A stretch of 32,000 nt of DNA from Candidatus Harpocratesius repetitus (GTDB taxonomy: Archaea > Asgardarchaeota > Lokiarchaeia > Sigyniarchaeales > Promethearchaeaceae), in assembly GCA_021498095.1 (NCBI GenBank), contig JAIZWK010000001.1, forward strand, positions 3,660,001 through 3,692,000, read 5' to 3'. A program made the translations under genes and the position numbers. Positions 18,368-28,306 of the stretch are shown here, in pieces. The notes beneath the pieces were generated by a model. That model searched no databases and was not told the DNA's origin. It was given only the letters and a program-made list of their open reading frames with translations. The number at the start of each line of letters is the position of its first letter. The stretch's first letter is position 1.

Positions 18368-18628
18368 CTATCCATATGAAAATTTAACTCCAGTCCCACC
18401 ATGAGGTTCCCCAAAATCGATTGCGTCAGCCATGCATACATTCCAGCATGCACCACATTCAACACAATTAGAGAGATTGATCGGTTTGTATATCTTTCCA
18501 ACCTTTTCCCATACTCTTGTTGTACAAAATTTAGCACATTGACCGCAACCAGTACACTTATCTTCAATGACTTTGATAAATTCCCCCGGGTCTCCATCAT
18601 AATATCTAAATTTCATCTCAATCTGCAT
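18368..18628 (-). CDS. 2x[4Fe-4S] ferredoxin, FixX-like
   Basis: CTGCGQCAKFC and CVECGACWNVC, plus a FixX-type C-terminus PHGGTGVKFSYG. The start overlaps the upstream stop (TAATG). Confidence 0.88.
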   Translation of the reverse strand: MQIEMKFRYYDGDPGEFIKVIEDKCTGCGQCAKFCTTRVWEKVGKIYKPINLSNCVECGACWNVCMADAIDFGEPHGGTGVKFSYG

Positions 18629-20046
18629 TATTTTTCATCACTTCCATTTTTCGATTTTTCAGATATGTTTGAATTAACTTGAGCGCGCATTTCACGATAT
18701 ATATCCATATAATCTGTAGAAACTTGCCGATACGGTTGAATAAATTCCAAAAAGGTTTTAGCTTCTTCTACTTCATCAATAGAACCATTTTCAACACCTT
18801 TAAACCACTTTGTGTGAACAGCATTGGTAATAAATCCCCCGCCCATAATTACAGATTGCATCATTTCCACAATTTCTTCATCGGGTTTGCTAAGAATGGA
18901 TTTTTTATTCTCTTCACCAACATACATAAAACCTTGAAGGAATAAGTTCTCTTGAATCATATCTTCATAAAATTCACTTAAAGCAGACTGGGAAACATCT
19001 CCTTTTTTAATGCAAGCTGCAGCAGTTTTAGCCGCATAAATACCGGTTAAAAATGCTTCGGGCATTCCTTCTCCCAGAAAGGGAATTACAAATCCTCCCG
19101 CTTCACCAGTAAGGATTAAACCATTCTTGGTTTTTTGTTCAATTTTATTATCATATTCTAAATGCACACCCCATGATTCGATTTTCCCACCTTCAAGTTT
19201 TTTCTGAATAATTGGAAGATTCATAAAATTACGCATATACTGTTCAACTGTTGGAAATTCATCATTAATTAACTCTTGAGTCATGTAACCCCCAGTTCCT
19301 AAAGTAACTGTATCCTTTTTGGGAAAAATCCAGGGCCAAGTTTTATATTGAGTACCAGGAGCTAAATAATATTCAATACAGCAACCACCTTGTTCATCCT
19401 TGAACCGTTCATTAATAATTTCTTCACCCAAATGTACAGCAGCGGTGATATACAAGATCATATTTTTACCAGAGCGTTTTGGAATTAATCCTGCTTTTCT
19501 TCCAACAATTGAATTCACTCCTCCACCATCAATAACAACATGGCACATCAACTTTTCTCCAGATTCAAGAATAACTCCTCTTATGGTATTATTTTCTTGA
19601 ATTATATCCACTACAGCAGTTCCTAAACGAATTTCTGCCCCAGCTTGTCTTGCTTGTTCTGTATGCCACTTATCGAATTCATCACGACGGATAGAAAGCA
19701 ATAGAACGCCTTCTTTGGGCATTTCAGTAAAAATTGTTGTTCTATCTTCACTAATATGATAAGTTCGCATCGAATGAATTTCCCGCTCAATCGGACATTT
19801 CATTATATAGTGTAAATCAGTATCTCCAAGCGCAGCCATATTCAAACATGTTCCAGAAACATTCTTTGCACCAGGATCAAGAGCTTTTTCAATTAATAAT
19901 GTTTTTAAACCTAATTCTGCACATTTTTTTGCAGCCGCTGGTCCAGCACAACCTGCTCCAACAACAATTACATCATATTCAACATCAGATTTCATAAAGT
20001 TCATTAGATCTTCAGAAATATTCCTTATGAAGATTGTCTTCTTCAT
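18628..20046 (-). CDS. FAD-dependent oxidoreductase, FixC / geranylgeranyl-reductase superfamily
   Basis: Motifs DVIVVGAGCAG, PGAKNVSG (FixC-like), RRDEFDKW, DGGGVNS, WPWIFPK and GEAGGFV.PFLGEGM. Confidence 0.88.
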   Translation of the reverse strand: MKKTIFIRNISEDLMNFMKSDVEYDVIVVGAGCAGPAAAKKCAELGLKTLLIEKALDPGAKNVSGTCLNMAALGDTDLHYIMKCPIEREIHSMRTYHISEDRTTIFTEMPKEGVLLLSIRRDEFDKWHTEQARQAGAEIRLGTAVVDIIQENNTIRGVILESGEKLMCHVVIDGGGVNSIVGRKAGLIPKRSGKNMILYITAAVHLGEEIINERFKDEQGGCCIEYYLAPGTQYKTWPWIFPKKDTVTLGTGGYMTQELINDEFPTVEQYMRNFMNLPIIQKKLEGGKIESWGVHLEYDNKIEQKTKNGLILTGEAGGFVIPFLGEGMPEAFLTGIYAAKTAAACIKKGDVSQSALSEFYEDMIQENLFLQGFMYVGEENKKSILSKPDEEIVEMMQSVIMGGGFITNAVHTKWFKGVENGSIDEVEEAKTFLEFIQPYRQVSTDYMDIYREMRAQVNSNISEKSKNGSDEK

Positions 20047-20217: not shown

Positions 20218-20520
20218 TTATCCAAAAAGAGCACCAAGACCTGCTGGTTCTTCTGGTTTCTCTTCTTTCTTCTCTTCTTTCTTTTCTTCTTTCTTTTCTG
20301 CTGCTGGAGCAGCACCCGCTGCTGGAGCAGCCATTACTGGAGCCGCAGAAGCACTGGCAATTAATTCGTCAATGTCTTTTCCTTCTAATCCTGCCACAAG
20401 GGCCTTAATTTGATTTTTATCAGGAGTGACATTTGCAGCTTTTAACACTTTTTCGATGCTTGCTTCATCAATTGTTTTTTCAGCTTTGTGAAGCAATAAT
20501 GCAGCGTATACAGATTCCAT
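20218..20520 (-). CDS. rpl12: 50S ribosomal protein P1 (archaeal L12)
   Basis: [14 protein letters not shown]-terminus, Ala-rich hinge and [11 protein letters not shown] tail. AGGAG SD-like site upstream. Confidence 0.97.
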
Positions 20521-20607
20521 TTTTATTTCTCCTATATATATTAGTTTATTAGTTTTGATTAAAAAATTTGAGTTTTTTAAAATTTGGATTAAATTATTGA
20601 ATTATAA

Positions 20608-21570
20608 TTATCCAAACAACGCTCCTAATCCTGCAGGTTCATCTTTTTCTTCCTCTTTAGGTTCTTCTTTTTTGGAAGATTCAGTTTCAGATGCTGCGGG
20701 CTGGGCAATTTCAATACCAAATGCAGCAGCATTGACAACAGATGCTTGTCGAATAGCTTTCTGCACGTATTGCTCGAGTAAATCGGGTATGATAATTGGC
20801 AATTCTAATGCTAAACCAATAGCATTTCTTGCTGCTTTTTGTATCAATGGAGTAATTGTTTCATCAGTAATCATACCCAAACTTAACGCCAAATTCAAAG
20901 CTTGTGAAGCAGCCAACCGCACATTTCCCATGATTTCTTCTTCATCAAGGTGTAATACTTCTTCAGGAATAATTTCACCTTCTTCCCATGCAGAATAGAA
21001 ATCTAATTTAATTGTCATTGGTTCTAATCCAAGACGTGCAAGGAGTTGTGCCTGCTTTTCATTAATTATATCCCCTTTATGATGAGTAACAGTATCAGAT
21101 CGAACATGAATAGTTCCATTTTTAATCATGGTTGGAACTTTTAAGAATTGATTTAATTCAGAAATAATTGGTCCAGGTGCAATTTTTGTATCTCCAGCTT
21201 TCACTGTAATATCTCCAGGAGCGATATCACCTGGTTTTGCTGGACCTTTTACTGCTTTCGATTCCAAATATTGAGCTAATTTTATAGGATTCATATTTGT
21301 AAAAAGTAAAGCAGTAATTCCTTGAATCTGATCTGCTAACTCAACCAGATTTTCTTTTCCAGATTCGGCAAAAGCACGGCGAAGCAATTTTTTCTTCGAA
21401 ACTGTAATTACAACATCTCCTCTTAACGAATCCCGCAAATTATGTAATGCTTTAGCAGGTACTTTTTCAATACGAGCCAACCCGATAGCATTAAACTCAT
21501 CGATTAACTTTCGGATACGCACAACTTCTTGAATTTTTGCAGGAGAGATTTTATGATCTTTAACTACCAT
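20608..21570 (-). CDS. rpl10: 50S ribosomal protein L10 (P0/uL10)
   Basis: uL10 core, PGDIAP.DI.V.AGDT...PGPII domain II, stalk helices and PAGLGALFG tail. Confidence 0.97.
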   Translation of the reverse strand: MVVKDHKISPAKIQEVVRIRKLIDEFNAIGLARIEKVPAKALHNLRDSLRGDVVITVSKKKLLRRAFAESGKENLVELADQIQGITALLFTNMNPIKLAQYLESKAVKGPAKPGDIAPGDITVKAGDTKIAPGPIISELNQFLKVPTMIKNGTIHVRSDTVTHHKGDIINEKQAQLLARLGLEPMTIKLDFYSAWEEGEIIPEEVLHLDEEEIMGNVRLAASQALNLALSLGMITDETITPLIQKAARNAIGLALELPIIIPDLLEQYVQKAIRQASVVNAAAFGIEIAQPAASETESSKKEEPKEEEKDEPAGLGALFG

Positions 21571-21577
21571 TTATTGC

Positions 21578-22306
21578 TCACCTTCTGCCTCCTTTCTGTG
21601 CTTCCTTAACCATTATTGGCTTTCCCATTGTTGTTTTTAAATAAATAGAACGAACATTATTATTTCCAACTGGTAATTGCCCTTCGATAAAATTAAGCAC
21701 AGATTTGATGTTATCCATCAATTCATCTTTTGATTGGGATTTCTTACCTACTTTTAGTTGCATCAAAAGTTGCTTTTTCATTGATATTTTCACGATGCGA
21801 TTCAATAAGGGTAAATAATTGCCCAAATCTTCATTTGGTCGAATCACACCAAAACCTTTGGGTTGGGGTCGAGGCATCTTTCCTTGTTGACCTAAAAAGC
21901 GAGCTAATACTCTAGCCAAATCGCGCATTAAATCGGCTCGAGCAACAAAATACTTAAATTTTTTAGCCACCTCTTTCTTTTCTTTTTTCGATTTCTTTTG
22001 TAATTCATTTAAATCGTTTTGGTTCAACACATGATAACCAGATTCCTTTAAATCCAACTCCATCTGATCTTTTACAATGAAGCAAACTTCATCTTTGGTC
22101 AAATTATTCGGGATAGGATGAGGTAATAAGATTTCATTATCAATTCGATTATTAGGGTTTTTAATATCAACATCGCGTATATTTATAATCAAATCAACAC
22201 TTTCATCAAATTTTCGAATTTTGTCAGGTTTACCATCCTTTTTAATGACCGAATTCTCAAGGGCCAATTCCAAGGCTTTTTGAACTTCTTTTTCACTAAT
22301 ATTCAT
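21578..22306 (-). CDS. rpl1: 50S ribosomal protein L1 (uL1)
   Basis: Motifs RKFDESVDLIINI, LARFLGQQGKMP and IYLKTTMG, and operon position. Confidence 0.96.
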   Translation of the reverse strand: MNISEKEVQKALELALENSVIKKDGKPDKIRKFDESVDLIINIRDVDIKNPNNRIDNEILLPHPIPNNLTKDEVCFIVKDQMELDLKESGYHVLNQNDLNELQKKSKKEKKEVAKKFKYFVARADLMRDLARVLARFLGQQGKMPRPQPKGFGVIRPNEDLGNYLPLLNRIVKISMKKQLLMQLKVGKKSQSKDELMDNIKSVLNFIEGQLPVGNNNVRSIYLKTTMGKPIMVKEAQKGGRR

Positions 22307-22310
22307 ATCT

Positions 22311-22808
22311 TTAAGCCTCCTCCGCCTTTATTTGGTCATCATAGGCACCTGCATCGATTTCCTTTAAAACATCCCGAGCAGTTTTCCCATCTATCTTAAT
22401 GCCACAAGAGTAAGCAGTCCCAATAATTGTTTTTGCTCGACTTTTCATATCTAAAGCATTTAAAGAATCTTCTTTCATTCGCGCAATTTTTAAAATAGCG
22501 CTGAAAGGTAAATCCCCTACGAAATTGGTGGTTGGTTCACCTGAACCCTTAGCGATGCCTAATTCTTTAAGTAAGAGTGCTGAAGCCATGGGCGTGCTAA
22601 CTTTAATTTCGAAACTTTTATCAACTGGATTCACCAAAATCGTGATTGGAACTTTAAGACCTTTAAAATCTTTAGTTTTTTCGTTGATTGCATCGACCAC
22701 GTCTTTAATAGGAACTCCAGTTGGACCAACAGCTGGACCAATAGGAGGACCTCCAGAAGCTTTTCCACCTTCAACGAGAGCCGAGACTTCAATCAATTTA
22801 TCTGCCAT
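22311..22808 (-). CDS. rpl11: 50S ribosomal protein L11 (uL11)
   Basis: VEGGKASGGPPIGPAVGP and IIGTAYSCGI. An in-frame TGA three codons upstream of the ATG fixes the start. Confidence 0.97.
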   Translation of the reverse strand: MADKLIEVSALVEGGKASGGPPIGPAVGPTGVPIKDVVDAINEKTKDFKGLKVPITILVNPVDKSFEIKVSTPMASALLLKELGIAKGSGEPTTNFVGDLPFSAILKIARMKEDSLNALDMKSRAKTIIGTAYSCGIKIDGKTARDVLKEIDAGAYDDQIKAEEA

Positions 22809-23166: not shown

Positions 23167-25758
23167 ATGAATTGCATTTTAACTCTAATGGTGCTCCATT
23201 CTCCAGATAAATTAATCAATCAGCATTGGATTAAAAATAATTTGGGACTTAAAGGAGAATGGGGTCAAAAATTATATAGACTTTTCTTCACAAATATTCA
23301 AAATCAGATTAGTGTAAAAATAGAAAAATCTTCTTTCAATCTTTGGAAAAACGAATTATGTAATCTTTATCCCATGAAAGAACTAACAATTGAATTATAT
23401 GCAAAACATTGTTTACTATTTTCGATATTATTTACATTTCTTGAACATGCACTTAATAATATGAATAAAAGCAAAGATCCAAAGGCAGAAATACCACATT
23501 ATTTTGATTATTTTGATTATTTTGAATGGATTGTCAAAAATCATCAAATTATTAAAGAACTTGCAGATCTTAAAGATATATTGACAAGATATCAAGTAGA
23601 ATCAGAAGATCTTTTTGCTGGAATCTATCAAGAATTAATTTTTAATTCAACCCGCCATATTCAAGGCGAATTTTATACTGATGAAGTTTTATGCGAGCAA
23701 ATGGTCGAATCATCATATAAAATGGGGATGAAAGTCTTAGATCCAACTTGTGGTTCTGGAACTTTCCTTCTGATAATTGCTCGAAAAATTTTGAAATCAT
23801 CAGTATCTTTTGAAGAGAAAGTACATTTCTTATCAAGTTTATACGGAATAGATCAGAATCCATTAGCATATTTGATGACACGAGTGAATTTGATGCTACT
23901 TGCATCTTCTTACGGAATTTATCAAGATATTTTCAATATATTTCATAAAGACAGTTTAGAAATTCATCCTAAAGATTTAAATAAACCATATTCAACCATC
24001 TCCCAGAGATCGTCGAATGTGCCAATAAAACAGCCAAAAAAAGAGCAGAATTTATTTGATTTATGGGATTTAATTATCGGTAATCCACCTTGGTTGGTGT
24101 TAAATGGCATACCTTCGAAAGAAAAACAATTGCAGATAAAAAAGCTTGGGAACGATTTAAACATCTTGTTAGGCGGAAGATTTGCCACCAGTACTGAAAT
24201 TACTACGATATTTTGGCAGAAAATGGTTAATGAATTTTTAAAACCCGGAGGTATCATTCATTTTGTTGTCCCTGCCAGTTTAGCTACAGGAAGTCAGCAT
24301 GCTCGATTTCGACAATTTTTAGGAGTTGAGAAGATTGAAATTTGGGATTTTACAGTGGATTTTTTCCGAATTCATAATATCTGTTTAAAGGCGCAAAAAT
24401 CACTTCATCCTTTGAATAAATTGATCAAAAAAACACATTGGATTAAATTTAGCTTTGATGAAGAACACAATTGTTTGAAAAAGATTTCAGAAGAAGATTA
24501 TCTTCCGATTATGATCGAATTTAAGAATAAATCGAATAAATCAAATAAATCTTTGCACGATACAAAGGATAATTCTTCTTATAGAACGTTACAAAAATGG
24601 ACCAAAAAAAAGCTGAATTCTGGACTCAGTTCGATTTCTAATGTAAATAATCAGGGATTTCATTCTTCTATCTTAGTTGGAAGGTTAATTTCCGAAAAAC
24701 AGTTGATATCCCTTTTCGGAAGACCTACACCACTTCAAATCTCCGAAAATCAACATTCTCCCTATAAGGTTCTTTTTCGACAAGGAGCATCACTAGTTCC
24801 GCGAAATCTTTTATTTGTTGAAATTAATGGAACTCAAATACAGCCTAATGTTGAAACTAATCCCCATTCAGTTTTTCTGGAGAAACATAAACATATTCCA
24901 TATACTATTTATCCAAACAAAGAAGCAGAAAATTCGAAGATTATCGAGATTTCGCCTGCGACATCAATTCAATCCAAAAAAGATAGTACGTGGAACTTTA
25001 ATGCATATACTTCAGTTCGTATTGAGAGTAAATATTTATTTCCAGTTGCAAAAAGCACAGGTTTGTTATCATTTTGCTATTTTCAACCTTATATGGCAGC
25101 ATTACCTATAGAGATATCAAGTAACTCAAAAGCTCATATCTTTTCTCAAGTGAGAATCCCAGATCAACCTTTAGCACGTAAGCATTTTACTCATTTAAGC
25201 AAAATATATACTCAAAATTTAAAATCAGGAGCAAAAATAACAGATTTATTTTCTCGATTAGATTATGGTCATGCTTTATCAGATCCAAAGCAGCTACAAC
25301 AACCAAAGATAGTATTTGCAGGGATCGGCAGTAATGTTAAGGCCGCCATTCTTCACAAGCCCGCTATTATCGATACTTCTCTTTATTTCTATATTCCTTC
25401 TTCAATAGATGAAGCTTACTACCTTATTGGGATTTTAAATTCAGATTTTATCATATCATTCGTACGATTATCGGGAAGCACCGGTGCAAATGGGAGTCTA
25501 CGAAATATACATAAAGCACCATTTAAGTTGCCAATCCCTATCTATAACTCTAACAATGATATTCATCGCCAAATTTCAGAAAAAGCGCGGAATATTGAAA
25601 AGAGCGTTTACTATTTTTTAGATGACACATTAAAAGCTGCACCTGAATTAAAAAATAAAATTAAAACATTACAAATACGTTTAATTAATAATCCTCATTA
25701 TCGACAACAAATAATGGATTTGACCCATTTTGTTCAAAAAGTATTAAATCTGCCTTAA
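23167..25758 (+). CDS. N6-adenine DNA methyltransferase with C-terminal target-recognition region (type IIG-like, no apparent nuclease domain)
   Basis: GEFYT, motif I VLDPTCGSGTFL, GIDQNPLA and motif IV IIGNPPW in gamma order. C-terminal YYLIGILNS...HKAPFKLPIP is TRD-like. Confidence 0.85.
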   Translation: MNCILTLMVLHSPDKLINQHWIKNNLGLKGEWGQKLYRLFFTNIQNQISVKIEKSSFNLWKNELCNLYPMKELTIELYAKHCLLFSILFTFLEHALNNMNKSKDPKAEIPHYFDYFDYFEWIVKNHQIIKELADLKDILTRYQVESEDLFAGIYQELIFNSTRHIQGEFYTDEVLCEQMVESSYKMGMKVLDPTCGSGTFLLIIARKILKSSVSFEEKVHFLSSLYGIDQNPLAYLMTRVNLMLLASSYGIYQDIFNIFHKDSLEIHPKDLNKPYSTISQRSSNVPIKQPKKEQNLFDLWDLIIGNPPWLVLNGIPSKEKQLQIKKLGNDLNILLGGRFATSTEITTIFWQKMVNEFLKPGGIIHFVVPASLATGSQHARFRQFLGVEKIEIWDFTVDFFRIHNICLKAQKSLHPLNKLIKKTHWIKFSFDEEHNCLKKISEEDYLPIMIEFKNKSNKSNKSLHDTKDNSSYRTLQKWTKKKLNSGLSSISNVNNQGFHSSILVGRLISEKQLISLFGRPTPLQISENQHSPYKVLFRQGASLVPRNLLFVEINGTQIQPNVETNPHSVFLEKHKHIPYTIYPNKEAENSKIIEISPATSIQSKKDSTWNFNAYTSVRIESKYLFPVAKSTGLLSFCYFQPYMAALPIEISSNSKAHIFSQVRIPDQPLARKHFTHLSKIYTQNLKSGAKITDLFSRLDYGHALSDPKQLQQPKIVFAGIGSNVKAAILHKPAIIDTSLYFYIPSSIDEAYYLIGILNSDFIISFVRLSGSTGANGSLRNIHKAPFKLPIPIYNSNNDIHRQISEKARNIEKSVYYFLDDTLKAAPELKNKIKTLQIRLINNPHYRQQIMDLTHFVQKVLNLP

Positions 25759-25856: not shown

Positions 25857-27014
25857 TTATGGACTACAAACATCTTTATAATGGGCAGGAGGGTATTGTA
25901 AATTCCGTCCTCGTACCCATTCATGAGTACGCCCTATTAATATGGTACGATTTCGCACAATTTGGCGCAATTCTTTAATATTTCGCACACCCAATAAACT
26001 CATAGTAATTTTCATTTGTGTAATAATTTTCAAAAACCAATTTTTAAGATTCTCTTCATCCGGATATCCAAAATCTTCCATAATTTCAATCAAAACAGGA
26101 TAAGCAAAACTAACCAAATCAGCCCCTAATGCTAAGGCTTTGACAGCTTCTCGGCCATTTCTAATTCCACCCCCAACAATCAAGGGAATTTCCCGATTCT
26201 CAGGTCGCAATGATATATCTAAAAGACTCCAAACTGTTGGAATTCCCCAAAAATCAAAAGGACGCTTGATTGGGGGATAAGTTTGTTTTTGAGAAGTTGA
26301 TAAATCCTTCACGGTTTCAATTCGAGCAATTGAAGTACCACCAACACCTTGAATATTAATACCAGCTACACCCGCATCCCACAATGGTCTGATATCTTCA
26401 TTACTCAGACCTGTGGTAAAGCTTTTTATAAATACAGGGACATGGAGTTGATATGTAAGATTATGAATTCGTTCAATTAATCCTTGATAACCAGTATTTC
26501 GAGGATCGACTAATATATCTAAAAGAGGAGATACCCAAATTTCAACACCATCTGCTTTAATAAAATCAACAATTTTTTGAACATCCTTCACATAATCTTT
26601 ACTTTCGAGAATAACAGTTCCTGAAATATTTGCTAAAACCAGTCCATCAGGATTTTTTTCTCTAACAACTTGATAACTCTTCAATGCATCTTCATCTGCA
26701 TCATCTTGCAAAATACAGCGTTGATCCCCGACACCTTGAGCAATATTATATTTTGCGGTAAATTCTGCTATTTTTTCATTAATCGGAATGAATTTTTTAT
26801 ACCCTCCTGCAAGAGATCCAACACAAATAGGATATTTTAAATGTTTTCCCATAAAATCTATGGATAAATCAACATCATTAACTCCAATTGGAGTTAGAGC
26901 ATTGGGAATGAAATATACTTCTTTCCAATAATTTTTCCCATGGTATTGAATATCTTCTTTTAATACAGTCTCCATGGTTTTTAACTGGTAATGCAAGAAC
27001 TCTTCTGGTTTCAT
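25857..27014 (-). CDS. Divergent type-2 isopentenyl-diphosphate isomerase (Fni/IDI-2)-like FMN TIM-barrel protein
   Basis: IDI-2 scaffold (GVGDQR, AN, GVGGTS, WGIPT, GGGIRNG, KALALGAD), but the substrate-binding motifs are replaced. Confidence 0.8.
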   Translation of the reverse strand: MKPEEFLHYQLKTMETVLKEDIQYHGKNYWKEVYFIPNALTPIGVNDVDLSIDFMGKHLKYPICVGSLAGGYKKFIPINEKIAEFTAKYNIAQGVGDQRCILQDDADEDALKSYQVVREKNPDGLVLANISGTVILESKDYVKDVQKIVDFIKADGVEIWVSPLLDILVDPRNTGYQGLIERIHNLTYQLHVPVFIKSFTTGLSNEDIRPLWDAGVAGINIQGVGGTSIARIETVKDLSTSQKQTYPPIKRPFDFWGIPTVWSLLDISLRPENREIPLIVGGGIRNGREAVKALALGADLVSFAYPVLIEIMEDFGYPDEENLKNWFLKIITQMKITMSLLGVRNIKELRQIVRNRTILIGRTHEWVRGRNLQYPPAHYKDVCSP

Positions 27015-27240
27015 TTCGCATTAAGTAATTGTTCAGATCCTTTATAGATATTACTTCGATTATGTTATTTTATCATTTTATTTTGATGAAAAAATTTCTT
27101 AATTAAATATTAGTTGTATATCCCTTTTTGATTAAATGAATAAATAACCTAATAAGGAACGGAGAAAATCAATAATTAAGCGTTTAGATCAACTTGAATG
27201 TTTATTCATTATCGTTTTTTAGAATCAAAGATGAAAATAA

Positions 27241-28164
27241 ATGATGTATGAACATAAATTAAAAATTAAGATTTTTCCTGGATATTTCTTATTTGTTGAA
27301 TCTATTTTTATTTTTTTAGAGATTTCATTTATATTTAATGATATTTTGGATTATCGAGAAGGAACTTGGACACTACAACAATTGTATTGGTCTTTAACCA
27401 TCATATTTTTGTTATATGGCGGCATTGAAATGATTTTTTACTATTATCTTTTTTCAATAATTAGTTTTGATTCTCAGAAAGGAATCCAAATCTTTTCTCG
27501 ATTCTCTAAAATTAAGGCAACTTGGAAGGAAATAAAATCAATAGAACTTACGCTAAGCCTTAATAAACATAATTACTCAGCTCAAGGTGGCATATTATTG
27601 ATCTTTTTAGTGCCTTTTTTTTATCATAATCGAATTTTAAAAATTCATATTACAACATTTTCAGGAAAAGAAAAAACTATTCGTACTTATGGTAATTTGA
27701 GAAAAATTAACCTTCTTTTCGAATTCTTGACAGACTTGAAAATTTTTAACACATCTCATTATAAAATTGATGTAAATGAAAGGAAAAAAAAATCGAAAAA
27801 AAAGAAAAGTGTGAAAAAAGCAGAAAAAACAAAAAAACCGAGATTTTTCGACCAATGGAGTTTTGTTCGGAATAATTCTTATCAAAATTTGGTTGTAAAC
27901 GACATTTTCATTCGAGACAAAAATTGGAATATCTGGGATAAAAAATACAGTCGTAGAGCAAAAATATTTATTATTTTGGGCATAATTTCAACGATCTGTA
28001 CATTTTCCCTTTTATTTTTAACTGCATTACATTGCGAATTTTCAAAATGTCCGACAATTTGGAACATTTTCCTAATAATACTACTAATTTGTTTAATCAT
28101 AGGATTGCCATTAGCATTTTTAACGCCAGAAATGCGTGATACTTCCGAATTTCTTGAAATTTAG
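27241..28164 (+). CDS. Membrane protein: 2 TM, bacterial-PH-like domain, Lys-rich linker, 2 TM
   Basis: Hydrophobic pairs at both ends. ISFDSQKGIQI...ATWKEIKSIEL is typical of bPH domains. KKKSKKKKSVKK linker. Confidence 0.5.
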   Translation: MMYEHKLKIKIFPGYFLFVESIFIFLEISFIFNDILDYREGTWTLQQLYWSLTIIFLLYGGIEMIFYYYLFSIISFDSQKGIQIFSRFSKIKATWKEIKSIELTLSLNKHNYSAQGGILLIFLVPFFYHNRILKIHITTFSGKEKTIRTYGNLRKINLLFEFLTDLKIFNTSHYKIDVNERKKKSKKKKSVKKAEKTKKPRFFDQWSFVRNNSYQNLVVNDIFIRDKNWNIWDKKYSRRAKIFIILGIISTICTFSLLFLTALHCEFSKCPTIWNIFLIILLICLIIGLPLAFLTPEMRDTSEFLEI

Positions 28165-28229: not shown

Positions 28230-28306
28230 GGACCCATCGCCTAGTGGATATGGCGTCAGCCTCCTAAGCTGATTTCCCGGGAGTTCGAATCTCCTTGGGT
28301 CCGCCA
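28230..28306 (+). tRNA. tRNA-Arg (anticodon CCT), intronless, CCA encoded
   Basis: Acceptor stem GGACCCA/TGGGTCC, anticodon arm TCAGC-CTCCTAA-GCTGA, T arm GGGAG-TTCGAAT-CTCCT, discriminator G then CCA. TATA-like CTATAAA lies about 15-21 nt upstream. Confidence 0.95.

What the first reader, a model, noticed from the sequence alone, without database searches (positions are those of the whole stretch)
25857..27014. IDI-2 paralogue with systematically replaced substrate-binding residues
Compared with characterised type-2 IPP isomerases (motifs recalled from memory): N-terminal RKxxH becomes QLKTM, MTGG becomes LAGG, GSQR becomes GDQR, HLNxxQExxQPEG becomes WVSPLLDILVDPR, KExG becomes KSFT, and GGTxW becomes GGTSI. 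The FMN-phosphate motifs (GGGIR, GG, WGIPT) and the barrel Lys remain. The ORF is full length and intact. Inference: a neofunctionalised FMN enzyme, flavin sensor or inactive partner subunit linked to Asgard isoprenoid metabolism, not a working IPP isomerase.
Basis: partly seen in the sequence, partly recalled or inferred. Interest (0 to 1): 0.6.

Follow-up and report, generated by a model that had tools for sequence, protein, structure and literature searches.

The report
Diverged IDI-2-like flavoprotein of Lokiarchaeia
This Asgard (Lokiarchaeia) genome carries, besides a normal type-2 IPP isomerase, a second, tightly conserved and (in a cultured relative) transcribed copy that keeps the flavin site but has lost nearly every residue that holds the isoprenoid diphosphate, so it is most likely an FMN enzyme with a new, still unknown substrate that databases mislabel as IPP isomerase.

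Summary
The ORF lies on the minus strand (385 aa). One motif was mapped one residue off: RKxxH corresponds to YQLKT.

The protein is an IDI-2 homologue scoring below the family cut-off (241 vs 281 bits). Its predicted fold matches S. shibatae IDI-2 (TM 0.86-0.90). It differs at 10 of 11 near-invariant substrate/Mg sites. FMN-site residues are kept.

A canonical fni (344 bits, next to a polyprenyl synthase) lies about 658 kb away.

The paralogue has orthologues only in one Lokiarchaeia family: 11 of 14 genomes, including relatives of the cultured Prometheoarchaeum and Lokiarchaeum. None was found in about 290 other Asgard genomes. Only 3 full-length (plus 2 fragmentary) representatives out of 1.84 billion belong to the clade.

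It evolves more slowly than the canonical copy (87.5% vs 56% identity between the same two genomes; dN/dS about 0.10 vs 0.17). In strain MK-D1 it is transcribed at a similar level.

Most likely it is a neofunctionalised FMN enzyme with a non-diphosphate substrate. The substrate was not identified.

No isoprenoid genes flank it. Its constant neighbour is an N6-adenine methyltransferase-like gene, operonic in the basal lineage.

The scan had noted the same motif pattern on other genomes.

The parts
25857..27014 (-). IDI-2-like paralogue ORF, 385 aa (P0001)
   Evidence: Searches show an intact ORF. TIGR02151 scores 241 bits, below the 281 cut-off. The best PDB sequence hit is S. shibatae IDI-2, E 9e-42. 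The AF2 model has pLDDT 94.2. The Foldseek top hit is 2zrw, TM 0.86/0.90.
26976..26990 (-). Y9-Q10-L11-K12-T13, in place of the N-terminal R-K-x-x-H diphosphate lid
   Evidence: Canonical sequences: R 91/93, K 92/93, H 90/93. Paralogue clade: Y/F/R/L, Q 23/28, T/S 23/28.
26802..26813 (-). L68-A69-G70-G71 (canonical M-T-G-G, the strand next to flavin N5)
   Evidence: T is present in 92/93 canonical sequences. The clade has T15/V9/A4.
26718..26729 (-). G96-D97-Q98-R99 (canonical G-S-Q-R)
   Evidence: S is present in 93/93 canonical sequences. The clade has D 25/28, N 2 and E 1. At the R position the clade has I in 17/28; R is kept only in the Harpocratesius-like subgroup.
26499..26537 (-). W160...R172, in place of H-L-N-P-x-Q-E-x-x-Q-P-E-G (the Mg/diphosphate and Gln region)
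   Evidence: H->Y/W in 26/28. N->S/E/D. Q->L/R/Q/I, variable. E->D in 21/28. Q->W in 18/28. G172, invariant in canonical sequences, is variable here.
26415..26426 (-). K197-S198-F-T200 (canonical K-E-x-G); the barrel Lys is kept
   Evidence: K is kept in 26/28. E (93/93 canonical) becomes S in 24/28.
26328..26342 (-). G225-G-T-S-I229 (canonical G-G-T-S/N-W)
   Evidence: GGT is kept. W/F becomes F in 20/28 and I in 5/28.
26196..26324 (-). Beta6-beta7 excursion carrying clade-specific conserved residues: R231, T234, K243, Q244, D254, W262, D266, and L-R-P-E272-N273. It also holds the retained WGIPT (256-260).
   Evidence: Each listed residue is present in at least 25/28 clade members and in fewer than 30% of canonical sequences.
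26160..26174 (-). G281-G-G-I-R285, the FMN-phosphate loop (canonical S-G-G-I-R)
   Evidence: G281 is present in 28/28 clade members, against S in 84/93 canonical sequences. GGIR is kept.
26049..26078 (-). Clade-specific insertion E313-D-F-G-Y-P-D-E-E-N322
   Evidence: G316, Y317 and P318 fall in columns that are gaps in 93/93 canonical sequences, and are present in 25-27/28 clade members.
27041..27046 (-). TATAAA hexamer 26 nt upstream of the ATG; a possible own promoter for a leaderless or short-leader mRNA
   Evidence: Read directly from the sequence. This is an inference and was not tested.
23167..25758 (+). Constant neighbour: an 863-aa gamma-class N6-adenine DNA methyltransferase-like protein (N6_Mtase/Eco57I/TaqI_C; motifs LDPxCGSG and GNPPW), convergent with the paralogue
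   Evidence: Domains. It is adjacent in 13 of the 14 distinct sequence contexts examined (10 complete-or-draft genomes plus G310 and the three metagenome contigs L003, L005, L047; L006 duplicates G312; only L048 lacks it). The 14 adjacent-MTase rows in the tree, which include the G312/L006 duplicate pair, form one clade.
20218..22808 (-). L11-L1-L10(P0)-P1 ribosomal operon, syntenic with the pair in most lineages
   Evidence: Synteny is seen.
28230..28306 (+). tRNA-Arg(CCT) upstream of the paralogue, as in P. syntrophicum MK-D1
   Evidence: In MK-D1 the order is DSAG12_01783 (tRNA-Arg) then 01784.

Best explanation
The ORF encodes a neofunctionalised member of the type-2 IPP isomerase (IDI-2) fold.

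Shown:
- It is an FMN-type TIM barrel that keeps the flavin-binding residues.
- The N-terminal Arg-Lys-His lid, the Ser of helix alpha4, the His/Asn/Gln/Glu set of the beta4 loop, the Glu after the barrel Lys and the Trp over the flavin are all replaced across an orthologous clade.
- The clade is confined to one Lokiarchaeia family.
- The clade evolves under stronger purifying selection than the canonical IDI-2 that every carrier also has.

Inferred:
- It still binds FMN and is catalytically active.
- It no longer clamps a Mg-diphosphate, so IPP/DMAPP is not its physiological substrate.
- The substrate is held instead by an acid at the old Ser position (D97), S198, aromatic or hydrophobic replacements (Y/W160, W169, F/I229), and newly conserved residues of the beta6-beta7 excursion and the beta8 insertion (R231, K243, Q244, D254, W262, E313-D314-x-G-Y-P).
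- The chemistry is carried out at flavin N5. It is either proton transfer, as in IDI-2 (double-bond isomerisation of a non-diphosphorylated compound), or hydride transfer.

The substrate itself was not identified.
For: Homology and fold:
- TIGR02151 scores 241 bits against a cut-off of 281.
- The best PDB hits are all IDI-2.
- The AF2 model has pLDDT 94.2. Foldseek's top hit is 2zrw, TM 0.86/0.90.

Site replacement:
- The replacements hold clade-wide. The protein differs at 10 of 11 key sites, while 130 of the 149 sequences compared differ at 0-1.
- FMN-site residues are kept: N129, K197, T227, GGIR, G297.
- There are 41 clade-specific conserved positions, concentrated after beta6 and beta8.

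A canonical copy exists:
- It scores 344 bits and sits beside a polyprenyl synthetase.

Distribution:
- 11 of 14 genomes of the family carry the paralogue plus a canonical copy.
- No paralogue was found in about 290 other Asgard genomes.
- Only P0013, P0026 and P0122, plus two fragments, belong to the clade among 1.84 billion representatives.

Selection:
- Identity between the same genome pairs is 87.5% vs 56%, 75% vs 49-50% and 54% vs 43-44% for paralogue vs canonical.
- For G285-G307, dN/dS is about 0.10 (0.066/0.646) for the paralogue and about 0.17 for the canonical copy.

Phylogeny:
- The clade is monophyletic (SH-aLRT 100) on a long stem of 0.64.

Expression:
- MK-D1 DSAG12_01784 has RPKM 219. 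The canonical DSAG12_01209 has RPKM 241 (Imachi 2020, Suppl. Table 3).
Against: - No activity, cofactor or ligand data exist.
- In S. shibatae IDI-2, single alanine mutants of the conserved polar residues still bind substrate and keep about 1-35% efficiency, because flavin N5 is the acid/base (PMC3509576). Residue loss alone therefore does not prove loss of isomerase activity.
- Within the clade, the former substrate positions are on average less conserved than the rest of the protein (entropy 1.64 vs 1.27). The old pocket looks relaxed rather than uniformly re-specified. This fits a moved binding site, but also a non-catalytic role.
- Model coordinates could not be inspected, so placing the newly conserved residues at the pocket rests on TIM-barrel topology only.
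- Gene context gives no metabolic clue.
Confidence: 0.6

Rival explanations
1. It is a non-catalytic or regulatory partner. The paralogue binds FMN or nothing, and joins canonical IDI-2 in its tetramer/octamer, or another protein, as a modulating or flavin-sensing subunit.
For: - The former substrate positions are relaxed in the clade.
- The position of the Gln reported as substrate-contacting varies: L/R/Q/I/V/T.
- Every genome with the paralogue also has a canonical IDI-2. The three genomes of the family without the paralogue also lack IDI-2.
- Many clade-specific conserved residues could form a protein interface.
Against: - Overall constraint is stronger than on the working enzyme.
- D97, S198, G281, Y/W160 and the FMN residues are fixed.
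- The joint absence in genera g2 and g71 is probably a single event, because their methyltransferases pair as sisters.
- The two genes are never adjacent or fused.
Confidence: 0.12
2. It is the functional partner of the neighbouring N6-adenine methyltransferase-like protein. The two form a unit acting on nucleic acid or on a SAM-linked metabolite, and the FMN protein supplies a second chemical step.
For: - The methyltransferase is adjacent in 13 of the 14 distinct sequence contexts examined.
- In the basal lineage the two genes are co-directional. The methyltransferase stop codon and the paralogue ATG are 1 nt apart, and the tandem order recurs in G310.
- The adjacent methyltransferases form one clade with the same basal branch as the paralogue tree (P0122), and a broadly similar branching order.
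- They keep the SAM and NPPW motifs.
Against: - In the crown lineages the genes are convergent, so not co-transcribed.
- The L11 operon, a tRNA-Arg and a large surface protein are conserved neighbours too, so this region keeps its gene order by descent.
- The methyltransferase evolves much faster (48-55% vs 87.5% identity, G000-G089).
- It belongs to a multi-copy, restriction-modification-like family.
- L048 lacks it.
- The paralogue gained no obvious nucleic-acid-binding features.
Confidence: 0.12
3. It is still an IPP/DMAPP isomerase, or an isomerase of a close analogue such as isopentenyl phosphate, that binds its substrate in an unusual way.
For: - The fold and flavin site are intact.
- Flavin N5 is the catalyst, and single mutants of the polar residues keep activity.
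- Lokiarchaeia of order CR-4 are reported to use a route through isopentenyl phosphate (PMC11052028).
- Databases name it IPP isomerase.
Against: - All cationic and Mg-binding residues are lost together, and an Asp is gained at the invariant Ser.
- It scores below the equivalog cut-off.
- A canonical copy is present and expressed.
- Isoprenoid context is absent.
- No UbiX or UbiD is present in the genome, so nothing would need dimethylallyl phosphate.
Confidence: 0.08
4. It is a decaying duplicate or pseudogene.
For: One draft-genome copy (G311) shows an in-frame TAA.
Against: - The ORF is intact in 10 other genomes and in about 27 metagenome clusters.
- dN/dS is about 0.1.
- It is more conserved than the canonical gene.
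- It is transcribed in MK-D1.
Confidence: 0.01

Closest known systems
Type 2 isopentenyl-diphosphate Delta-isomerase (IDI-2 / Fni; TIGR02151; e.g. Sulfolobus shibatae 2ZRW, Thermus thermophilus 1VCF, Bacillus subtilis 1P0K)
   Same: - Same fold and length, with 25-35% identity.
- FMN-site residues are the same: Asn of beta3, Lys of beta5, GGT, WGIPT, GGIR.
- An origin by duplication of the family's own IDI-2 is not rejected (AU p 0.595).
   Different: - Scores below the equivalog cut-off.
- Differs at 10 of 11 near-invariant substrate/Mg positions.
- Has its own conserved insertions: LRPEN and EDFGYPxExN.
- Has no isoprenoid gene context or fusions, unlike canonical copies. Those occur as IPK-IDI2, IDI2-polyprenyl synthase and DXS-IDI2 fusions, and in the GGR-GGPPS-IDI-IPK-MVK-HMGR cluster of MK-D1.
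FMN-dependent alpha-hydroxy-acid oxidases/dehydrogenases (Pfam FMN_dh PF01070: LldD, glycolate oxidase, lactate oxidase). This is the source of the RefSeq name 'alpha-hydroxy-acid oxidizing protein'.
   Same: - Same superfamily TIM barrel and FMN-phosphate loop.
- Pfam FMN_dh hit with E 3e-18, over the C-terminal half.
   Different: - Similarity is restricted to residues about 181-351, and structural matches are much weaker (TM about 0.56-0.66).
- The catalytic His and Arg of the S-N-H-G-x-R motif align to V224 and T227.

Membership tests
IDI-2 (TIGR02151 equivalog) | HMM score at or above the curated cut-off (281.3 bits) | tested here: not met
   241.2 bits. The genome's other copy scores 344.3 bits.
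IDI-2 (TIGR02151 equivalog) | FMN-binding (beta/alpha)8 barrel of the IDI-2 type | tested here: met
   AF2 model pLDDT 94.2. Foldseek's top 10 ranks, and all 14 leading entries listed, are IDI-2 structures; the best (S. shibatae) reach TM 0.86/0.90. N129, K197, T227, GGIR and G297 are conserved. FMN binding itself was not measured.
IDI-2 (TIGR02151 equivalog) | N-terminal Arg-Lys-x-x-His segment that closes over the diphosphate (Arg7/Lys8 in S. shibatae; PMC3509576) | tested here: not met
   It reads Y9-Q10-L-K-T13. Canonical sequences have R 91/93, K 92/93 and H 90/93.
IDI-2 (TIGR02151 equivalog) | G-S-Q-R of helix alpha4 (Arg98 contacts substrate; Ser invariant) | tested here: not met
   S (93/93 canonical) becomes D97. 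R99 is kept in this protein, but the position is I/V/T/L/Y in 22 of 28 clade members.
IDI-2 (TIGR02151 equivalog) | H-x-N-P-x-Q-E after beta4 (the review PMC3509576 names His155 and 'Gln161', taken here to be Gln160, near the substrate; Glu as Mg ligand is from my own recollection) | tested here: not met
   It reads W160, S162, L165, D166.
IDI-2 (TIGR02151 equivalog) | K-E after beta5, and an aromatic Trp/Phe after G-G-T-S/N | tested here: not met
   K197 is kept. E becomes S198. W/F becomes I229.
IDI-2 (TIGR02151 equivalog) | IPP/DMAPP isomerase activity dependent on reduced FMN and Mg2+ | not testable with these tools
   An enzyme assay is needed.
IDI-2 (TIGR02151 equivalog) | Genomic association with mevalonate or prenyl-chain genes (typical, not strictly defining) | tested here: not met
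   The neighbours are a methyltransferase, the L11 operon, tRNA-Arg and membrane or surface proteins. The canonical copy is beside a polyprenyl synthetase.
FMN-dependent alpha-hydroxy-acid oxidase/dehydrogenase (PF01070) | Catalytic His and substrate-carboxylate Arg in the S-N-H-G-x-R motif after beta6 | tested here: not met
   BLASTP alignment to a LldD-like protein of G165 places N-H-G-G-R opposite G-V-G-G-T of the paralogue.
FMN-dependent alpha-hydroxy-acid oxidase/dehydrogenase (PF01070) | Full-length match to the family profile | tested here: not met
   The Pfam match covers only profile positions 208-345 of 350. Lactate oxidase and LldD NCBIfam models score 19-32 bits against cut-offs of 376-645.

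The most novel reading that the evidence does not exclude
The IDI-2 fold has been recruited here for a flavin reaction on a substrate class not known for this fold. The enzyme would work as a conserved two-gene unit with the neighbouring N6-adenine methyltransferase-like protein, which is operonic with a 1-nt spacer in the basal lineage. That would make it an FMN-dependent step in nucleic-acid modification, demodification, or a SAM-linked pathway specific to the family that contains both cultured Lokiarchaeia.
Probability: 0.1. Interest if true: 0.8.

Novelty: new variant of a known kind. Interest (0 to 1): 0.5.

Why it matters
The two cultured Lokiarchaeia, P. syntrophicum MK-D1 (QEE15956.1, DSAG12_01784) and L. 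ossiferum (UYP47919.1), both carry this protein under the name 'isopentenyl-diphosphate delta-isomerase'. Metabolic reconstructions of Asgard lipid synthesis would therefore count two isomerases where there is probably one.

The protein is more conserved than the true isomerase. It is confined to one family and is transcribed, so it very likely does something that matters to these organisms.

IDI-2 is the textbook case of a flavin acting as an acid/base catalyst without net redox change. A natural variant that keeps the flavin but swaps the substrate site is a ready-made test of how far that chemistry extends. It can be expressed and assayed directly.

Tried and rejected
1. Isopentenyl phosphate -> dimethylallyl phosphate isomerase feeding UbiX/prenyl-FMN. 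Rejected: the genome has no UbiX above cut-off and no UbiD, and the phosphate-binding cations are gone as well.
2. Alpha-hydroxy-acid oxidase (the RefSeq name). Rejected: the catalytic His and Arg are absent.
3. Defence-system component. PADLOC gives no hit for the paralogue.
4. Fused forms as a Rosetta-stone clue. None exist for the paralogue; only canonical IDI-2 fusions were found.
5. ESM Atlas. It returned only IDI-2 clusters.
6. The large neighbouring protein (1466-1482 aa) as a partner. It is a signal-anchored, N/S/T-rich surface protein with a C-terminal transmembrane segment. Only its recurring position links it to the paralogue, and that looks like inherited gene order.
7. A net charge shift of the clade. 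None is consistent.
8. Pocket geometry. The model's coordinates are not exposed, so no distances or docking could be computed.
9. Primary IDI-2 structure papers (PMC2666567, PMC3251075, PMC4215930, PMC3856697). None are held. Residue roles come from the review PMC3509576 and from my own recollection.
10. Context of the second outlier lineage, P0251.
11. The free tree placed the clade away from the family's canonical IDI-2, but the AU test does not reject a sister relation. The origin of the clade is left open.
Full report
WHAT IS THERE

The interval 25857-27014 holds one intact ORF of 385 aa on the minus strand. Pfam sees only the generic FMN_dh domain over its C-terminal half. The NCBIfam equivalog model for type-2 IPP isomerase (TIGR02151) matches end to end, but at 241 bits against a cut-off of 281. 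By sequence, the nearest solved structures are all IDI-2: S. shibatae 2zru (E 9e-42), T. thermophilus and B. subtilis. An AlphaFold2 model built on a 121-sequence alignment is confident (pLDDT 94.2, pTM 0.93). Its best structural matches are the S. shibatae IDI-2 entries (TM 0.86/0.90). Alpha-hydroxy-acid oxidases follow far behind (TM about 0.56-0.66).

THE MOTIF CLAIMS

Residues were mapped through the 2zru alignment and an alignment with 93 canonical IDI-2 sequences.
- M-T-G-G -> L68-A-G-G
- G-S-Q-R -> G-D97-Q-R
- H-L-N-P-x-Q-E-x-x-Q-P-E-G -> W160-V-S-P-L-L-D166-I-L-V-D-P-R
- K-E-x-G -> K197-S-F-T
- G-G-T-x-W -> G-G-T-S-I229

One correction is needed. R-K-x-x-H aligns to Y9-Q-L-K-T13, not QLKTM.

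The canonical residues at these sites are close to invariant: S 93/93, N 93/93, E 93/93 (two positions), K 92/93, R 91/93, H 90/93 (two positions), Q 90/93. Of the 149 sequences compared (148 representatives plus the query), 130 differ at no more than one of 11 such sites. This protein differs at 10.

The residues I take to be flavin-side, from family knowledge and their conservation, are kept. They are N129, K197, T227, WGIPT, GGIR and G297.

The review PMC3509576 names Arg7, Lys8, Ser9, Arg98, His155 and Gln160/161 as lying next to the substrate. It names helix 95-102 and loop 162-177 as the parts that close on binding. These are the segments remodelled here.

IT IS A PARALOGUE WITH ORTHOLOGUES

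The window lies in a single-contig 4.36-Mb genome. A second IDI-2 gene lies about 658 kb away and scores 344 bits. It keeps RKxxH, GSQR, HLNPLQE, KE and GGTNF, and sits beside a polyprenyl synthetase.

Word-indexed searching of 5.8 billion proteins gave 27 clusters at 39-97% identity (at least 310 bits). There is then a gap down to canonical IDI-2 at 198 bits or less. An exhaustive HMMER pass over 1.84 billion representatives found only P0013, P0026 and P0122, plus two fragments, above that gap.

The named sources are Candidatus Harpocratesius, P. syntrophicum (QEE15956.1) and L. ossiferum (UYP47919.1). There the protein is called either IPP isomerase or 'alpha-hydroxy-acid oxidizing protein'.

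Among whole genomes:
- 11 of 14 genomes of the window's own family have the paralogue and a canonical copy.
- None of about 290 other Asgard genomes sampled, nor five further genomes of the order, has the paralogue.

The replacements are shared by the whole clade. The basal branch (P0122/G310) still keeps K-E, the His of 'LVHNALPE' and S-G-G-I-R. It looks like an intermediate.

SELECTION, ORIGIN, EXPRESSION

Between the same pairs of genomes the paralogue is more conserved than the canonical enzyme:

| Genome pair | Paralogue identity | Canonical identity |
|---|---|---|
| G000-G089 | 87.5% | 56% |
| G000-G094 | 75% | 49-50% |
| G000-G307 | 54% | 43-44% |

For the least saturated pair (G285-G307), Nei-Gojobori estimates are as follows:

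| Copy | dN | dS | dN/dS |
|---|---|---|---|
| Paralogue | 0.066 | 0.646 | about 0.10 |
| Canonical | 0.129 | 0.745 | about 0.17 |

In a maximum-likelihood tree the clade is monophyletic (SH-aLRT 100) on a long stem of 0.64. The family's canonical copies form their own clade. The free search did not join the two. A tree that does join them is slightly better and is not rejected (AU p 0.595). Duplication of the lineage's own IDI-2, followed by a burst of change and then stasis, therefore fits the data but is not proven.

In the published MK-D1 transcriptome (Imachi et al. 2020, Supplementary Table 3), DSAG12_01784 is the 'IPP isomerase' between tRNA-Arg and a COG1002 methyltransferase/L11. This is the same order as in the window, and its RPKM is 219. 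The canonical DSAG12_01209 sits inside a GGR-GGPPS-IDI-IPK-MVK-HMGR cluster with RPKM 241. I equate DSAG12_01784 with the paralogue on the basis of annotation and gene order, not sequence.

WHERE THE CONSTRAINT LIES

Within the clade, the former substrate positions are on average more variable than the rest of the protein (entropy 1.64 vs 1.27). The exceptions are D97, S198, G281, Y/W160 and F/I229.

Forty-one positions are conserved in the clade but not in canonical IDI-2. Many fall in two places:
- The long excursion between beta6 and beta7: R231, T234, K243, Q244, D254, W262, D266, E272, N273.
- A five-residue insertion after beta8: E313-D-x-G-Y-P, then E320, N322 and W326.

By TIM-barrel topology these lie on the catalytic face, but I could not measure distances. 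I read this as follows. The Mg-diphosphate clamp was abandoned, a few pocket positions were re-fixed, and new determinants arose on the lid. This favours a new ligand or partner over decay. It does not by itself separate 'enzyme' from 'binding subunit'.

CONTEXT

No isoprenoid gene flanks the paralogue in any locus seen. Canonical IDI-2 genes, by contrast, are beside or fused to IPK, polyprenyl synthase or DXS.

The constant neighbour is a 750-880-aa gamma-class N6-adenine methyltransferase-like protein (N6_Mtase/Eco57I/TaqI_C; motifs LDPxCGSG and GNPPW).
- It is adjacent in 13 of the 14 distinct sequence contexts examined.
- In most it is convergent, with gaps of 2-98 bp.
- In the basal lineage it is co-directional, with the stop and ATG 1 nt apart.
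- The adjacent methyltransferases form one clade with the same basal branch (P0122) as the paralogue tree.

Against a functional link:
- The L11 operon, tRNA-Arg and a large surface glycoprotein-like gene are also retained neighbours.
- The methyltransferase evolves fast and belongs to a multi-copy family.

I rate a functional link at roughly one in eight to one in ten.

VERDICT

The most likely reading (about 0.6) is an active FMN enzyme whose substrate is not a prenyl diphosphate. The rivals are:
- an inactive or regulatory partner (about 0.12);
- a methyltransferase-linked function (about 0.12);
- residual IPP or IP isomerase activity (about 0.08).

The caveat from mutagenesis of S. shibatae IDI-2 means that only an assay can exclude isomerase activity. 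Three earlier first-reader notes of this scan recorded the same motif pattern on other genomes. They add no independent evidence.

I class the protein as an undescribed subfamily of a known fold, of moderate interest. It is directly testable in the two cultured Lokiarchaeia.

Noticed in passing
window 23167-25758 (+): An 863-aa N6-adenine methyltransferase-like protein (LDPxCGSG, GNPPW, TaqI_C domain) with no recognisable nuclease domain or partner. Its orthologues stay beside the IDI-2 paralogue across the family, and the wider family has about 4-6 copies per Lokiarchaeia genome. In MK-D1 it is annotated as an N5-glutamine methyltransferase (DSAG12_01785).
   Followed up: partly
G165, G234 (genus g2) and G306 (genus g71), same family as the window's genome: These three genomes (91%, 76% and 80% complete) have neither IDI-2 nor the paralogue, and no convincing IDI-1. 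The only hits are LldD-like, FabK-like and a weak Nudix protein. How they make DMAPP is unclear.
   Followed up: partly
P0141, P0145, P0225, P0192 (database proteins); also L041 (G310) and many genomes of family f2: Canonical IDI-2 occurs in several fusions: IPK-IDI2 (about 636 aa, common in the sister Lokiarchaeia family), IDI2-polyprenyl synthase (772 aa), DXS-IDI2 (980 aa), and HAD-CTP-dependent riboflavin kinase-IDI2 (702 aa). The last joins the enzyme to the maker of its own cofactor.
   Followed up: partly
P0251 (354 aa, database protein): A second, separate IDI-2-like lineage that also has Ser->Asp and His->Tyr at the same sites and has lost the G-G-T motif (8 of 11 key sites changed). 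P0140 is a milder outlier (6 of 11).
   Followed up: partly
L047:3650-8050, L005:3375-7820, L048:3452-7900: Orthologous 1466-1482-aa proteins with an N-terminal signal/anchor, a C-terminal transmembrane segment and N/S/T-rich sequence (a probable surface glycoprotein). They flank the paralogue in the deep-branching lineages and are absent from that position in the window.
   Followed up: partly
window 27241-28164 (+): A 307-aa predicted membrane protein (weak DUF2207_C match) with a lysine-rich linker, divergent from the paralogue. No family could be assigned.
   Followed up: partly
L031 (G311:C259:7131-8264): The paralogue copy in this draft genome carries one in-frame TAA. This is either an assembly error or a real pseudogene in one strain.
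   Followed up: no
L003, L048; window 18628-20046 (-): Geranylgeranyl-reductase-like FAD proteins (391-401 aa) lie 1-7 kb from the paralogue on two metagenome contigs. A FixC-like flavoprotein follows the ribosomal operon in the window. Orthology among them was not tested.
   Followed up: no
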